Positions 12,197-59,445 of a stretch of 59,570 nt of DNA are shown here, piece after piece. The position numbers and the translations under genes are program-made. The stretch comes from Terracidiphilus sp. (GTDB lineage: Bacteria > Acidobacteriota > Terriglobia > Terriglobales > Acidobacteriaceae). The notes below the pieces were generated by a model, which saw nothing but the letters and a program-made list of their open reading frames with translations, ran no database searches and was not told the DNA's origin. Each line of letters begins with the position of its first letter. Within the stretch, counting starts at the first letter, position 1. The DNA lies in NCBI GenBank assembly GCA_035642355.1, contig DASQSP010000212.1, forward strand, positions 1-59,570, given 5' to 3'.

Positions 12197-12308
12197 GGTG
12201 CCCCATCCATGCGCAGCATGGGTGGAAAACCACAAAAGCCGCATCGAGCAAACGCCGGGTGCCCCATCCATCGCGCGTCCTGTGCGCGATGGGTGAGAAA
12301 CCACGAAC
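12197..12308 (+). repeat. Two tandem family-B REP-like palindromes
   Basis: GGTGCCCCATCCAT...ATGGGTG...AAACCAC twice (12197-12236, 12257-12308). Confidence 0.85.
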
Positions 12309-19892: not shown

Positions 19893-19927
19893 GGGTGCCC
19901 CCGGTCCCTAGCTTTTGGGGACCGGGG
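19893..19927 (+). repeat. Family-B REP upstream of RAYT
   Basis: GGGTGCCCCCGGTCCC...GGGGACCGGGG hairpin. Confidence 0.85.
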
Positions 19928-19983
19928 ATAGAAAACTCACTCTCCACAACTGAAAGGTTTCCCTTGGAGTATCCTCGTAACGC

Positions 19984-20559
19984 ATGAAGGGCAAGCGCAT
20001 CCGTTACCAGCAGACCGGCGAATTCCACTTCCTCACCTTCAGTTGTTATCGACGTCGAGCCTACTTATCGGCACCTGCGGCCATGGAACTTTTCGAAGAC
20101 GCGCTGGAGCGCGTTCGCCTGCGTTATCTTTTTGCGGTGGCCGGCTACGTCGTCATGCCGGAGCATGTGCATCTTCTGGTCAACGAGCCCAGGCGAGCCC
20201 TTTTATCCCGGACCATCCAAGCCCTGAAGTTGTCAGTCTCGATGCGCAGCCGGGAAAGGCCCTTCTGGCAGGCCCACTATTATGACTTCAACATCTCTTC
20301 CCACGAGAAGTTTGTGGAGAAGCTGCGCTACATTCACCGCAACCCTGTGGCGCGCGGTTTAGTGACAAAGCCCGAAGACTGGGCGTGGTCGAGTTACCTC
20401 CACTATCAAACGGGCATGCGCGGAACCATTGAAATCGAATCCGAATGGACAGCCCGCGAGAGAGGCTGGCAACTGCCCGGCTGGATGCGCAATCACGAGC
20501 CCGACTCCCCTAAATCCCCGGTCTCCAAAGGCGAGAGACCGGGGGCACCCTCAACTTGA
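19984..20559 (+). mobile_element. REP-associated tyrosine transposase (RAYT, Y1 HUH)
   Basis: FLTFSCY, VVMPEHVHLL (HUH), FWQ..YYD, YIHRNPV, WAWSSY; flanked by inverted REPs. Confidence 0.93.
20516..20550 (-). repeat. Family-B REP overlapping RAYT 3' end
   Basis: Reverse complement GGGTGCCCCCGGTCTC...GAGACCGGGG. Confidence 0.85.
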
Positions 20560-20607
20560 TGTATTCTTCCTTTTGAGATAGGGGCCACCCGCCAGACACG
20601 GGAAAGC

Positions 20608-54684: not shown

Positions 54685-55467
54685 CTACCGGGTCAGCGCC
54701 GCCGCAGGCTGGCGCAGACCCCTGATAAATCGGGCCACCGCGCCGGGCGCTGCTTCGGGAGTCGATTTCTCGATCAGCTCCACGATTGCGCTGCCGATCA
54801 CCGCCGCATCGGCGAACTCCGCCACCTGGGCGACGTGTTCCGCGTTGGAGATGCCGAACCCCACGGCCACCGGCAGCGAAGTCCATCGCCGTATACGGGC
54901 GACCAGCGACGCGGCATCCGCGGTCATGCTCTGCTGCTTGCCGGTGATGCCGGTGCGCGAGATGGCGTAGACAAATCCCTTGCTGTGCGCGGCGATGGCC
55001 TGCAGCCGATCATCGGGGCTGGTGGGCGCGGCCAGAAAGATGGGCGCAAGATTCACGCGGGCCATTTCTGCCAGATACTCGCCCGCCTCTTCCACAATAA
55101 TGTCGGTCACCAGCACGCCATCGGCACCGGCAGCGGCTGCATCGTCTGCAAACTTGCGCAGGCCGTAGCGCAGGATGGGATTGAAGTAGCTGAAGATGAC
55201 GAGGCCGGCTGCGGGCCGCGCGGCGCGAATCTCGGCAGCGAGCGCGAGCACATCTTTGAGGCGCGTACCTTTGGACACAGCACGCTCGCTGGCGCGCTGA
55301 ATCACGGGACCGTCGGCCAGCGGATCGCTGAAGGGTACGCCGAGCTCGATCACATCCGCGCCCGCATCGATGGCCTCAAGCGCGATCGAGCGCGTGGCTT
55401 CGAGCGAGGGGTCGCCGGCGGTGAGATACACCACCAGGCCCGGTTTGTGCTGGAATTCGATCGCCAT
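54685..55467 (-). CDS. trpA: Tryptophan synthase alpha
   Basis: ELGVPFSDPLADGPVIQ, GITG, VGFGIS. Confidence 0.98.
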   Translation of the reverse strand: MAIEFQHKPGLVVYLTAGDPSLEATRSIALEAIDAGADVIELGVPFSDPLADGPVIQRASERAVSKGTRLKDVLALAAEIRAARPAAGLVIFSYFNPILRYGLRKFADDAAAAGADGVLVTDIIVEEAGEYLAEMARVNLAPIFLAAPTSPDDRLQAIAAHSKGFVYAISRTGITGKQQSMTADAASLVARIRRWTSLPVAVGFGISNAEHVAQVAEFADAAVIGSAIVELIEKSTPEAAPGAVARFIRGLRQPAAALTR

Positions 55468-55481
55468 CGGAGTTCTTCGGA

Positions 55482-56699
55482 TCACGCTCCCCGGAGGTTG
55501 AGCTCGTCGGCGAGGATGCCCATATCCTTGTCGCCGCGCCCGGAGAGGTTGACTACAAGTATGTCATGCGCGGCCATCGTCGGCGCCATGCGCAGGGCCT
55601 CGGCGACGGCGTGCGCGCTCTCGAGCGCGGGCAATATGCCTTCAGTACGCGCGAGCTTGACGACGGCCGCAAGCGCGGCGGCATCGTCCTGCGCGGTGTA
55701 CTCGGCGCGGCCGGAGTCGTGCAGCGCGGCGTGCTCCGGGCCGATGGAAGCGTAGTCGAGACCCGCCGAAACCGAATGCGTGTTGGCGATCTGGCCGTTC
55801 TCATCCTGCAGAACGTAAGAGAACGTGCCTTGCAGCACGCCGGGTTCTCCGCCGTGGAAACGCGCCGCATGCTGGCCGAGCGCGGTGCCGCAGCCGCCCG
55901 CCTCCACGCCGATGAGCCGCACCTGCTTGTCCGGGATGAACTCGTAGAAAGCGCCGATGGCGTTCGAGCCGCCGCCCACGCAAGCGACCACTGCGTGGGG
56001 CAGCCTTCCTTCCTTCTCCAAAATCTGCTCTTTGATCTCGCGGCTGATGACGCGCTGGAAGTCGCGCACCATGGTTGGATAGGGATGCGCGCCCAGCGCC
56101 GAGCCGAGGATGTAGAAGGTGGAACGGACGTTGGTGACCCAGTCGCGCATGGCCTCGCTGATGGCGTCTTTCAGCGTCTTCGAGCCGGACGACACGCTGC
56201 GCACTTCCGAGCCCAGCAGGCGCATGCGCAGCACGTTCAGATCCTGGCGGGCCATGTCCACTTCGCCCATGTAGACGATGCACTCCATGCCGAGCAGCGC
56301 GCAGACTGTGGCGGTGGCCACGCCGTGCTGGCCGGCGCCGGTCTCCGCGATGATGCGCTTTTTGCCCATGCGTTTGGCCAGCAGCGCCTGGCCGAGAGAG
56401 TTGTTGATCTTGTGCGCGCCGGTGTGCAGCAGGTCTTCGCGCTTGAGATAAATTTTTGCCCCGCCCAATTCTTCACTAAGGCGCTTAGCGAAGTAGAGCG
56501 GCGTGGGACGGCCGGCAAAGTTGTGCAGCAGGTCGGCAAGCTCGGCCTGAAAGGCCGCATCGGCCTGCGCTTCGGCATAGGCGTGCTCCAGCTCAAGCAG
56601 AGCGGCCATCAGCGTCTCCGGCACATAGCGGCCGCCGTAGACGCCGAACCGCCCGGGACGCGACTCCGACGGAGCCGATGGAAGAATGACCGATGCCAT
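55482..56699 (-). CDS. trpB: Tryptophan synthase beta
   Basis: [30 protein letters not shown]. Confidence 0.99.
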
Positions 56700-56958
56700 G
56701 GAGCCCTCCTGCACCTGCGCCTGCGCGCGAAATGGGGAACCCTTCAGTGTACAGGGAAGGCGTGCGGCGGGCTGGCCGGGTTAGGTAGCATTCATGCGGT
56801 GGGCGGGCTGAATGTTGATCGACCAGTAACTGTCGAATAGCGGGTTAGCCGCCCGCAACTCGTGAATGGAGCCCGAATAGGCAACCGATACAGTGCATGG
56901 GCAGGCGATACGCGTGAAGGAGGTATACTCTTGCTGCGTCACTCCCTACAAGAGGTGC

Positions 56959-57372
56959 ATGATGAGGAGATTCGTCGTTATCGGCGTAATGCTTGTCTGT
57001 CTTTGTTCAATACATGGTCAAAAGACTCGGCTCGGGCAAACGCCGCCAACACTAGCCACTGTCCATCTACACATTTCCGCATCGCATCTCCGGCTCAACT
57101 GTAGCGGCAGCAGCATTGGCTCCGCCGGGCCTGGCGTCGAATGTGGTTACGGGCTCTATGTAGATGCGATTCTGAATGGCAAGAAGATTGAGCTATGGGG
57201 CGATTCGAAAATTGGGAAACAACGATGGGCACTCGTTGCGCCGGGCGATTACACAGCGCAGCTCACGAGTGACGAACACAACGCCGATCAATCTGTGGTT
57301 AGCCAAAACTATCGACTCCTTCTTCCTGACGGCACCACCTGGTCATGCCAGTTAAGCGGCATCATGGAATAG
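56959..57372 (+). CDS. Hypothetical secreted protein (AT-rich insert)
   Basis: GAGG RBS, signal peptide, antisense to the trp operon. Confidence 0.65.
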   Translation: MMRRFVVIGVMLVCLCSIHGQKTRLGQTPPTLATVHLHISASHLRLNCSGSSIGSAGPGVECGYGLYVDAILNGKKIELWGDSKIGKQRWALVAPGDYTAQLTSDEHNADQSVVSQNYRLLLPDGTTWSCQLSGIME

Positions 57373-57624
57373 CTTCGAAACATTGTGAACGCCTGAGATT
57401 GCGATCAACGAAAACTCAGAGGATTCCGGCAACGCCATTTACTACCGAAAGCGTCATGATCGACCACATTTGAGGGACCTACGCCGGACTAAGCTTTTGC
57501 GCATTCGGGGTTGTTTGTCCCCGATCCGGAAATAGCTCACGAGTAAACACTCTGGAAGTGGAAGGTCCAATTGTAGCGGCAAATGGGCCAGCTGGCCCCT
57601 AAGGAAATGCGGACGGCGACGGTT

Positions 57625-57924
57625 TCAGGCCGCCTTGTTCACGCGCACGCTCACGCGCAGGCCGGCGGCGGTGAGCATGTTCACCAGCATGTCGATGCTG
57701 AAGAGATTGATTTTGCCGCGCATGAGGTTGGAGATGCGCGGCTGCGAGACGCCGAACGCTTCTGCGGCTGCAGTTGGGCTGAGGCCCTCGCGCTCGATGT
57801 GGCGCTTGAGCGCGAGCATGAGAGACGAACGTAGTTTGAGGTTCGCCGCCTCCGTCGGAGATTTCTCGATAGCGTCCCACACGCTTGCGTGGCGCGTGTT
57901 CGGCTTACGCGTAAACGAGGGCAC
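57625..57924 (-). CDS. Orphan HigA-like XRE (HTH_37) protein
   Basis: SVWDAI..SPTEAANLKLRS, GVSQPRISNL.RGKI..FSID.L. Confidence 0.88.
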   Translation of the reverse strand: MPSFTRKPNTRHASVWDAIEKSPTEAANLKLRSSLMLALKRHIEREGLSPTAAAEAFGVSQPRISNLMRGKINLFSIDMLVNMLTAAGLRVSVRVNKAA

Positions 57925-57962: not shown

Positions 57963-58733
57963 CTATTCGCTCTCGGCGCGGGCGTTGGCGATGAAGGCGC
58001 GCACCTTGGCGGGGTCTTTGCGGCCGGGCGCGGCTTCCACACCGCTGACGACATCGACACCCCAGGGACGCAGTGTGGCAATGGCCTCCGCCACGTTTTC
58101 CGGGTTGAGGCCGCCGGCGGCGATCATCTTCGCGTTACCGCGAAAGAGGGTTTGCGAGGCGCTGGCCCAGTCGAAGGCGATGCCGGTGCCGCCGACGGCG
58201 GTTGCGGTGCGCGAGTCGATGAGGATGCCGTCTATATTTGTGTCAGCGGCCAGTGCGGCGGCTTGCTGTGCGGCGTCCGCGCCGAAGTGAACCACGCTCA
58301 GAATGCGCAGCGCTCGTCCGAACTGCGCGCCGAACTGAGCGCGGAGTTCGGCGGGCAGCTTATTGATCCGGGAAGTAAATAGTGTTGTGCTTTCCCACCC
58401 ATCGCGCATAGAACGCGCGATGGGTAGGGCACCCAAGTCGCGGTATTTAATTGCCGGATCTATAGGCGCGGCACCGGAGTGAAGCTGCACGCCGGTGAGG
58501 CCGGCGACGCGGACGGCCGCTGCAATTTCATCGAGAGACGCGTCGACGAAGACGCCAATTTTCTCAATCTGCGCAGGCAGGTGCGGGGTGATGGCTGCGA
58601 CCTGATCAGCCTTTACGCGGCGCGGACTGGGCGCGAAGACGAAACCAACCGCATCCGCTCCCGCGTCGGCCGCAAGCTCGGCGTCAGCGAGAGAGGTATT
58701 GCCGCAAATTTTGATCCAGAGAGGCATAAGCAT
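57963..58733 (-). CDS. trpF: Phosphoribosylanthranilate isomerase with 34-aa in-frame insertion
   Basis: KICG.T, GFVF..SPR, VQLH, GGTG..FDW, AGGLNPENV, DVVSGVE..PG.KD. Confidence 0.96.
   Translation of the reverse strand: MLMPLWIKICGNTSLADAELAADAGADAVGFVFAPSPRRVKADQVAAITPHLPAQIEKIGVFVDASLDEIAAAVRVAGLTGVQLHSGAAPIDPAIKYRDLGALPIARSMRDGWESTTLFTSRINKLPAELRAQFGAQFGRALRILSVVHFGADAAQQAAALAADTNIDGILIDSRTATAVGGTGIAFDWASASQTLFRGNAKMIAAGGLNPENVAEAIATLRPWGVDVVSGVEAAPGRKDPAKVRAFIANARAESE
58361..58464. mobile_element. TA-flanked MITE (IS630-like ends) carrying family-B REP, in frame in trpF
   Basis: TATTGATCCGGGAAGTAAAT / ATTTAATTGCCGGATCTATA (17/20 inverted match); net 102 bp. Confidence 0.88.
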
Positions 58734-58738
58734 GTTGA

Positions 58739-59170
58739 TTAGAGGATAAGCGGGCCGGCATCGGCGGCAAAGGGGTTCAGGACGCGCACACCTGTGCCTT
58801 CAAAGTGGCTGACGTTGTGGGTGACGACGCTGAGATCGTAAACCAGCGCCATGGCGGCCAGTTGCTTGTCAATTGGGTTTTGGGTGTCGATGCTCATCAG
58901 TTGTCCCCAGGTCTCCGCGCAGGTGAGATCGAAGGCCAGAATGCGCGCAGCAAAATCTTCGTGGACGGTCTGGAGCCAGACTTCCAGGCTGGCTGCCTGG
59001 GGCTGATCGCCGCGGCGGCGCAGGCGCTCGATGCCGCCACGCAGCTCTCCAATGACGAAGACGGGCACGAAGATCTCGTGTTCTTTACGGTCTACAAACT
59101 CGGCGACTCCCGGATCGGCCCGCCTGCCTTTGCGGCGCTCACTCAGAACATTCGTATCAACCAGGTACAT
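58739..59170 (-). CDS. vapC: VapC/FitB PIN-domain toxin
   Basis: YLVDTNVLSE, GEL..G, D..LAA.A, VTHN..HF, NPF. Confidence 0.93.
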   Translation of the reverse strand: MYLVDTNVLSERRKGRRADPGVAEFVDRKEHEIFVPVFVIGELRGGIERLRRRGDQPQAASLEVWLQTVHEDFAARILAFDLTCAETWGQLMSIDTQNPIDKQLAAMALVYDLSVVTHNVSHFEGTGVRVLNPFAADAGPLIL

Positions 59171-59172
59171 GA

Positions 59173-59385
59173 TTATCCGCGCGGAAAGACGAAGTCTTCG
59201 TCGTTGCCGACGTTGGGCATGGCGGCGAGGACTTCATTGAATGAGCGTTTACGCGGCTGCAGCAGAGCGGCCTTGAGGATGGCGCGGTGCTCGGCTTCGG
59301 CGCTGCGGCCGTTGCGGGCGGCCTGCTCCTTGAGAGACTGCACGACGTTTTCTTCCACGTTCCGAACAACCAAGCTAGTCGGCAT
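59173..59385 (-). CDS. FitA-like RHH antitoxin
   Basis: LVVRNV...LK.QAARNGRSAEAEHR.IL; GGAGG RBS. Confidence 0.9.
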   Translation of the reverse strand: MPTSLVVRNVEENVVQSLKEQAARNGRSAEAEHRAILKAALLQPRKRSFNEVLAAMPNVGNDEDFVFPRG

Positions 59386-59398
59386 GGTGCGCCTCCGG

Positions 59399-59445
59399 TG
59401 ATTGCACTGATTGCATTCTAGCACGAAATGCAATCATTGCAATCA
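59399..59445. promoter_or_regulatory. Inverted-repeat operator of FitA/VapC module
   Basis: TGATTGCACTGATTGCATT-N9-AATGCAATCATTGCAATCA (18/19). Confidence 0.75.

What the first reader, a model, noticed from the sequence alone, without database searches (positions are those of the whole stretch)
58361..58464. MITE inserted precisely in frame in trpF, adding 34 residues
Seen: 20-bp inverted ends with TA on both sides enclose a family-B palindrome nearly identical to 12257-12308. Removing 102 bp (element plus one TA) converts VQLHSGAAP-[IDPAIKYRDLGALPIARSMRDGWESTTLFTSRIN]-KLPAELR into VQLHSGAAPKLPAELR, with no stop or frameshift. Inference: a tolerated coding insertion in a TIM-barrel loop, analogous to Rickettsia palindromic elements but with intact transposon ends.
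Basis: partly seen in the sequence, partly recalled or inferred. Interest (0 to 1): 0.8.

Follow-up and report, generated by a model that had tools for sequence, protein, structure and literature searches.

The report
Hairpin-filled mini-transposon inside tryptophan enzyme
A 102-base piece of jumping DNA, made of the two ends of an IS630-type transposon wrapped around one of the host's own hairpin repeats, sits in frame in this bacterium's only detected trpF gene and adds 34 amino acids to a predicted surface loop that the enzyme likely tolerates, a known kind of event with an unusual nested element.

Summary
Real. The 104-bp stretch (TA + 100 + TA) is one of 35 full-length copies in the genome. 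Its ends match 1120-bp IS630-family elements found in the same genus (20-23 of 28 bases), although no such partner is in this assembly. Its middle is a REP-like hairpin that also occurs free. Relatives' TrpF lack the 34 residues. The insert follows strand 4; the barrel models intact, the catalytic Cys, Arg and Asp are kept, and no second trpF was found. Being in frame is no feat: 102 is a multiple of three and two to three of six frames are open. Three more genes carry open in-frame copies (pgeF, a prepilin leader, a signal peptide). 4 open copies were seen against 5.7 expected, and 0 stop-bearing against 6.3, so tolerated copies seem to survive near neutrally. At least 17 other genus members carry a different REP insert in TrpF. 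In-frame MITEs and REPs are known (RPE, Correia, ERIC, BRE). The less familiar part is the IS630 shell around a host hairpin, which recurs with other cores in this genome and in Proteobacteria. Enzyme activity is untested. Verdict: new variant of a known kind.

The parts
57963..58733 (-). trpF, phosphoribosylanthranilate isomerase, 256 aa (254 from the second ATG), single open frame
   Evidence: only PF00697 locus in the assembly
58361..58464 (.). MITE copy, TA + 100 bp + TA (102 bp net); on the minus strand it encodes residues 91-124 of TrpF
58361..58362 (.). TA target copy (left)
   Evidence: sequence; empty site reads CC-TA-AG on the coding strand
58463..58464 (.). TA target copy (right)
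   Evidence: sequence
58361..58386 (+). end that matches the right end (3' of the transposase) of IS630-family elements, TA-TTGATCC type
   Evidence: 20-21 of 28 identical to four genus IS630 right ends, 22 of 28 to L150
58437..58464 (-). end that matches the left end of the same IS630 elements, TA-TAGA type
   Evidence: 21-23 of 28 identical
58387..58434 (.). REP-like hairpin core with a GGTG foot; also free in this genome and across the genus
12257..12308 (.). free copy of the REP-like core, without transposon ends
58317..58340 (-). 12-bp tandem duplication (AQFG twice) just downstream in trpF, absent from relatives
   Evidence: sequence; alignment
54685..56714 (-). trpB and trpA, intact open frames downstream
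   Evidence: trpB; trpA named from its sequence and position, not scanned
19893..20560 (+). RAYT-like Y1 transposase gene between inverted GGTG-footed hairpins of a sister type; context only, not shown to be cognate to the core (coordinates approximate)

Best explanation
A non-autonomous element made of the two roughly 26-30-bp ends of an IS630-family insertion sequence around a host REP-like hairpin was likely cut and pasted by an IS630 transposase supplied in trans into the TA of CCTAAG in trpF, and because it adds 102 bp in an open frame the enzyme is predicted to carry a 34-residue surface loop after strand 4 and likely still works. Shown: anatomy, copy number, TA flanks, match to IS630 ends, empty state in relatives, open frame, kept catalytic residues. 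Inferred: mobilisation in trans by a partner that is now lost or unassembled; the REP having been placed between the IS ends earlier (probably by a RAYT-type enzyme) and then carried along; retained activity; near-neutral survival. The insert is most likely tolerated baggage, not a selected new function.
For: Ends: 1094-1117-bp elements with the same ends in Nitrosomonas, Ca. Nitrotoga and Dokdonella records; the intact one scores as IS630 transposase, 252 bits against a cut-off of 100. Homologues occur in 28 of 301 genus genomes, with 1120-bp elements whose left and right ends pair with the MITE's two ends in the same order. Target: of 16 copies with both TAs intact, 15 have a pyrimidine before and 16 a purine after. 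Core: 53 free, 27 in complete shells and 9 half among 89 pattern hits; the stem keeps pairing through changes on both sides. Gene: C10, R39 and D173 align with T. maritima C7, R36 and D126. Only 1 of 80 columns invariant in ten relatives is changed, against 0-6 in the relatives. dN/dS is 0.12 against G003, and the branch is short, 0.10 against 0.16 and 0.25 for its sisters. The model keeps the barrel, TM 0.86 to 1LBM, with low confidence at 88-123 and 177-185. trpD, trpE-like and trpB genes are present. Census: 4 of 35 copies lie inside genes, all open, against 5.7 open and 6.3 stop-bearing expected; P(0 stop-bearing) = 0.002. At least 17 genus TrpFs keep a REP-dimer insert elsewhere.
Against: No activity, RNA or peptide data exist; no RNA holder was listed. 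The site is five residues after H85 on the active-site face. dS to the nearest relative is about 1.0, so dN/dS and branch length mostly reflect time before the insertion. The copy has only 5 rare bases (2 unique, 3 shared with one other copy), so a recently dead gene would also look nearly intact. The operon is interrupted on both sides of trpF by other genes. trpC is cut by the contig end and the rest is not in the assembly. No HisA/PriA family gene reached the cut-off, which suggests pathway genes are missing from the assembly, so a substitute cannot be excluded. No autonomous partner is in G000. The census rests on my own simple gene caller, which missed the start of the prepilin gene, and on small numbers. 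The model used 11 sequences, none covering the insert, so low confidence there is expected either way.
Confidence: 0.75

Rival explanations
1. The insertion cripples or kills TrpF. The gene is a young pseudogene, or a deleterious allele fixed by drift in an organism that takes up tryptophan.
For: The insert is on the catalytic face next to H85. A -49 kcal/mol hairpin lies in the mRNA. Only 5 rare bases in this copy. The operon is interrupted, trpC is incomplete in the assembly, and one otherwise invariant Arg is Ser.
Against: No stop or frameshift; catalytic residues kept; trpB, trpD and trpE-like frames open. Stop-bearing copies are absent from genes while open ones persist. Relatives keep other large TrpF inserts across species. 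Passages in PMC3741200 and PMC9088769 report that beta-alpha loop changes in such barrels, and loop 6 grafts in TrpF, leave activity.
Confidence: 0.15
2. The unit was moved as a hairpin by a RAYT-type single-strand transposase acting on the REP core; the IS630-like ends are passengers.
For: RAYT-like genes between GGTG-footed hairpins are in the genome, while no matching IS630 is. Extra hairpins are nested in some copies.
Against: TA on both sides, YTAR flanks and fixed outer borders fit IS630. The ends match left and right IS ends separately. The same ends enclose unrelated cores, or plain deletion remnants, in other hosts. The hairpins flanking the RAYT-like genes are a sister type, not this core.
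Confidence: 0.05
3. The insert is removed or skipped at the RNA level, or has been selected for a role (attenuation-like control of trpF, a new binding surface), so it is more than tolerated baggage.
For: A very stable hairpin inside a tryptophan gene; the peptide has one Trp codon; the length stays near 102 bp in several genus genomes.
Against: The same element reads in the opposite orientation in pgeF and in leader peptides. The Trp codon is in the family consensus. Lengths of 99-103 bp net occur in relatives. No Rfam match of any weight. No second carrier was seen among the genus TrpFs examined.
Confidence: 0.03
4. Assembly artefact: a repeat was mis-joined into trpF.
For: Metagenome bin in 258 contigs; the repeat is in 35 copies; no single listed contig of X1 spans the whole element.
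Against: Exact TA duplication and a clean empty site; contigs reach over both junctions with no other letters and carry this copy's own variants; no empty-site joint; a second contig holds the same protein.
Confidence: 0.02

Closest known systems
IS630-derived bacterial MITEs, e.g. RUP of Streptococcus pneumoniae (107 bp, ends like IS630-Spn1, TA target; PMC2229807 and PMC3049150, passages)
   Same: About 100 bp, no transposase, TA flanks, ends matching an IS630 element, many mostly intergenic copies.
   Different: The middle is a separate host hairpin repeat that also occurs free, not leftover IS sequence. Two to three frames are open, whereas RUP is reported to have stops in all six.
Rickettsia palindromic elements (RPE) and other in-frame repeats: 107-bp Correia, ERIC/RU-1, BRE, intragenic GTAG and CGTC REPs (PMC10969869, PMC2229807, PMC2759123, PMC3733652 passages; PMC3184786 section 15)
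   Same: Palindromic repeat read in frame inside conserved genes. The RPE-bearing guanylate kinase is reported active with changed substrate affinity (as cited in PMC2229807; original not seen).
   Different: Here the mobilising family can be named from matching ends, the share inside genes is lower (4 of 35 against nearly half for some RPE families), and the host is a free-living soil acidobacterium by inference. No sequence relation to RPE was tested.
REP / REPIN elements with RAYT transposases (PMC3733652, PMC6006769, passages)
   Same: The core is a short imperfect hairpin with a four-base foot, in many free copies; RAYT-like genes between such hairpins are in the genome.
   Different: The foot is GGTG, the core is single rather than a doublet, its cognate RAYT was not identified, and here it travels inside IS630 ends. 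The nearest printed structure I saw is the fusion of degenerate REPs with unrelated stems in terminal repeats flanking some Pseudomonas RAYT genes.

Membership tests
IS630-derived MITE | Short, no transposase, terminal inverted repeats | tested here: met
   104 bp, ends 16 of 20
IS630-derived MITE | TA target duplication | tested here: met
   16 of 35 copies keep both TAs and 14 keep one; empty sites rebuild relatives' length in trpF and the prepilin
IS630-derived MITE | Ends match an autonomous IS630 element | tested here: met
   20-23 of 28 to genus elements; transposase NF033545 over cut-off
IS630-derived MITE | Multiple dispersed copies | tested here: met
   35 full-length
IS630-derived MITE | Autonomous partner in the same genome | tested here: not met
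   No match in G000 at E 1e-30; one 28% hit only; the assembly is incomplete and repeats may be unassembled
IS630-derived MITE | Mobilised in trans by the transposase | not testable with these tools
   needs an assay
REP/RAYT system (for the core) | Short imperfect hairpin with a conserved four-base foot, many free intergenic copies | tested here: met
   53 free of 89 pattern hits; compensatory changes; the query matches 103 of 151 genus genomes, mostly by the core
REP/RAYT system (for the core) | Same REP flanks a RAYT gene in inverted orientation | tested here: inconclusive
   Two RAYT-like genes are flanked by a sister GGTG hairpin, not this one; one core copy lies about 600 bp from one of them
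Rickettsia palindromic elements | Sequence family of Rickettsia (CGTC-tagged or RPE-1 type) | not tested
   No RPE sequence was compared; the foot and host differ, so it is filed as working like an RPE, not as one
Rickettsia palindromic elements | In-frame insertion in several unrelated conserved genes | tested here: met
   trpF, pgeF, prepilin, a secreted protein
TrpF (PRAI) | Eight-stranded barrel with catalytic Cys and Asp | tested here: met
   Pfam PRAI 129 bits, but below the NCBIfam equivalog cut-offs
TrpF (PRAI) | PRA isomerase activity | not testable with these tools
   needs complementation or kinetics

The most novel reading that the evidence does not exclude
IS630 ends repeatedly and independently package whichever REP-type hairpin their host already has, in Acidobacteriota and Proteobacteria, giving REPs a second, cut-and-paste route of spread that needs no RAYT; and this genus is a large natural experiment in which such repeats enter core enzymes at close to the neutral rate and some, as in the TrpF strand 5-6 segment, persist across species and erode into ordinary protein loops.
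Probability: 0.35. Interest if true: 0.7.

Novelty: new variant of a known kind. Interest (0 to 1): 0.42.

Why it matters
It is a clean, datable case of selfish DNA adding sequence to a metabolic enzyme. Unlike the Rickettsia cases, the transposase family can be named and intact relatives exist, so both movement and tolerance can be tested with simple assays (trpF complementation, transposition in trans). The shell-around-a-host-hairpin build suggests a way for REPs to spread without RAYT. The many independent inserts in one enzyme across one genus offer a series from fresh repeat to eroded loop. It also warns annotators: these repeats create spurious open frames and lower family scores.

Tried and rejected
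Looked for the partner among the three IS630-like loci of G000: no matching ends. Nucleotide search with a genus element found nothing and the protein search one weak hit. Laying that element on run X1 gave no cover, which proves nothing. No RNA holder was listed, so nothing can be said on expression. Rfam gave one chance-level hit. A profile of the 34-residue peptide against 1.84 billion representatives gave 85 hits; the 57 scanned with Pfam showed no recognisable host protein carrying the peptide, and those read were spurious frames or unrelated repeats, so it adds no cases. Long open frames through other copies (C78, C8, C53, C85, C200, C236, C207 and others) had no Pfam match and poor codon scores and were rejected as shadow frames. 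The C123 copy lies upstream of a start codon. Seven copies were flagged as intragenic after excision; four of them (C211, C207, C32, C85) were reassigned as insertions at a gene's 3' end, and C229 was added by hand from alignment. Selection for a length divisible by three was rejected: relatives show 99-103 bp net. One origin for the 17 REP-type TrpF inserts was not established: the quick tree needs 3 changes, the careful tree and the one-clade test did not finish, and the divergent row L264 was left out. In one search, 22 of the 94 loci were dropped as not giving one frame with all motifs, and duplicates were merged to 68 proteins. Two primary papers (PMC2950511, PMC186582) are not held. No supplementary files were read; the list of intragenic REPs in the supplement of PMC3733652 could bear on novelty.

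Full report
Observation. Window 58361-58464 has TA at both ends and lies in a 256-codon frame on the minus strand that scores as phosphoribosylanthranilate isomerase. The ends match each other at 16 of 20 bases and the core matches 12257-12308 at 43 of 52. The strand folds far better than shuffles (z -7.2). All 22 genus TrpFs printed lack the segment, the gap is 34 columns, and no second carrier appeared among 68 distinct single-frame TrpFs from 94 loci, 22 loci being dropped as not single-frame by my motif test. Contigs of one public run reach over both junctions and show no empty site; this run may be the source sample. The lineage is inferred from record titles that carry the same element (Terracidiphilus sp., Acidobacteriaceae, Terriglobales).

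What the element is. A profile search gives 110 hits in the genome, 35 full-length, 22 of them exactly 104 bp. Sixteen keep both TAs; 15 of these have a pyrimidine before and all 16 a purine after. Six of them are 1094-1117-bp elements with the same ends, and the intact frame is an IS630 transposase. Homologues occur in 28 of 301 genus genomes but not in G000. Four 1120-bp genus elements match the window's right end with their left end at 21-23 of 28 bases, and its left end with their right end at 20-21 of 28. That IS630 prefers TA within CTAG is recalled, not from a call. Between the ends lies a hairpin of about 48 bp that also occurs free: 53 free, 27 in complete shells, 9 half. The query matches 103 of 151 genus genomes, mostly through the core, and full length in at least eight. 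Stem and ends both show changes on both sides. So the element is IS right end, host hairpin, IS left end.

The nested build recurs. In G000 a second shell with unrelated ends carries the same core, and two more shells carry other hairpins. In Proteobacteria and one Verrucomicrobiota record, these same ends enclose unrelated palindromes, while plain deletion remnants also exist. In the three such genomes checked, core-only matches occur as well. Five earlier AI notes of this scan report similar IS630 shells with hairpins in other genomes. I did not test them; they came after my own result and are not evidence, but they lowered my sense of rarity. Searches of the library showed no paper on IS630 ends around a REP core, or on these repeats in Acidobacteriota. 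The library lacks most subscription journals, and I saw listings and passages only.

Why it is in frame. 102 bp is 34 codons, and the consensus is open in three of six frames. Among the 22 copies of 104 bp, the frame used in trpF is open in 20 and the other common frame in 14. Four copies lie inside genes, all open: trpF; pgeF in the other orientation, with 39 extra residues against G003; a prepilin leader; and a signal-peptide region. Eleven overlap a gene's 3' end and 20 are intergenic. From 5998 YTAR sites (3748 intergenic, 579 at stops, 1671 inside genes), 5.7 open and 6.3 stop-bearing intragenic copies are expected; 4 and 0 are seen (P 0.33 and 0.002). This suggests that breaking insertions are purged and open ones survive near neutrally. 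It rests on my own codon-score gene caller, on hand reassignment of five copies, and on small numbers.

Is the enzyme alive? The model puts residues 91-124 after strand 4 (81-84) and before helix 125-141, with low confidence at 88-123 and a barrel matching 1LBM at TM 0.86. The alignment had no rows for the insert. C10, R39 and D173 align with T. maritima C7, R36 and D126. PMC9088769 (passages) names Cys and Asp as the acid-base pair, loops 3 and 6 as catalytic, R36 as important, and TrpF as tolerant of loop 6 grafts; the numbers 7 and 126 as catalytic are recalled. PMC3741200 (passages) lists barrels with loop insertions as active. One of 80 otherwise invariant columns is changed, dN/dS is 0.12 and the branch is not long. 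It is the only PRAI-family gene found; trpB, trpD and trpE-like frames are open. Against this: dS is about 1, so these measures are blunt for a recent event; the copy has only 5 rare bases; the site is on the active-site face; other genes interrupt the operon; trpC is cut by the contig end; no HisA/PriA was found over the cut-off; and there are no RNA data. I put retained function at about 0.8.

The genus tolerates such inserts. TrpF was found in 379 of 401 genus genomes. I fetched 35 of those with split or weak matches, chosen for that reason, so what follows is a floor and not a frequency. Seventeen TrpFs carry a REP-dimer insert between strands 5 and 6, one carries tandem palindromes after helix 1, and five carry a non-repeat insert at the strand 5-6 site. 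The carriers are clustered on a quick tree but need three changes; one origin is neither shown nor excluded.

Comparison with what is known. In-frame repeats in conserved genes are established for RPEs, the 107-bp Correia element, ERIC, BRE and REPs (PMC10969869, PMC2229807, PMC2759123, PMC3733652, passages; PMC3184786, passages and section 15). RUP is the standard IS630-linked MITE (PMC2229807, PMC3049150, passages). The element passes the tests for an IS630-derived MITE except for a partner in the same assembly. It works like an RPE but is not filed as one. Its core behaves like a REP, with no cognate RAYT identified (PMC6006769, passages).

Verdict. The event is of a known kind. The variant features are the IS630 shell around a host hairpin, the identifiable transposase clade, near-neutral survival of open copies, and repeated repeat-derived inserts in one enzyme across a genus. 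Interest 0.42. The boldest reading, a general RAYT-free route of REP spread and a genus-wide source of new loops, has probability 0.35 and would deserve 0.7.

Noticed in passing
G000:C228:4884-4987 (L031, L087): Second in-frame copy, opposite orientation, inside pgeF/yfiH; 39 extra residues against G003, i.e. the element plus 15 unexplained bases.
   Followed up: yes
G000:C229:7313-7416 and G000:C71:4404-4507: In-frame copies in a prepilin leader (14 residues before the G|L site once removed, as in G003) and in the signal-peptide region of a conserved secreted protein.
   Followed up: yes
L002, L003, L265, L268, L269, L271, L272, L274-L280, L283, L285, L295: 17 genus TrpFs carry a different REP-dimer insert between strands 5 and 6, some with further nested hairpins; each matches repeats in G000 (14-173 BLAST pieces).
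   Followed up: partly
L267, L273, L281, L282, L286: A supported clade of five TrpFs has a non-repeat insert at the same place, with altered loop 6 residues; it may be an eroded repeat now under selection.
   Followed up: partly
L020 (G008): Two tandem palindromic units add 28 residues after helix 1 of TrpF.
   Followed up: partly
G000:C6:19030, C9:2246, C9:5089, C47:6318, C69:28931, C83:4578: A second TA-bounded shell, 126-128 bp, with unrelated ends around the same REP core; two more shell types carry other hairpins (e.g. C152:136, C218:1354, C184:237, C247:1055). Their transposases were not sought.
   Followed up: partly
L167, L179, L146, L151, L132, L124, L204, L187, L210, L227, L141: The same IS630 ends enclose unrelated palindromes in Gallionella, other Beta- and Gammaproteobacteria and a Verrucomicrobiota record. 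In the three genomes checked, core-only matches also exist.
   Followed up: partly
11 of 35 copies in G000: The copy overlaps the 3' end of a called gene and supplies or rebuilds its stop; about 4 expected from target counts.
   Followed up: partly
G000:C142:10090-13329: A 1080-aa oxidoreductase-like gene reads through free REP copies in frame; relatives not compared.
   Followed up: no
window 58739-59433 and 56893-57924: A VapC-like toxin-antitoxin pair lies between trpC and trpF, and an HTH gene and a hypothetical gene between trpF and trpB; in relatives L232 and L234 these trp genes are adjacent.
   Followed up: partly
window 19893-20560 and G000:C32:8970-9650: Two similar RAYT-like genes, each between inverted GGTG-footed hairpins.
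   Followed up: partly
L341 (G057): Two IS630 copies lie head to tail, about a dozen bases apart.
   Followed up: no
G000 as a whole: No HisA/HisF-family gene over the Pfam cut-off and only the last 40 or so codons of trpC, despite 96.6% completeness.
   Followed up: no
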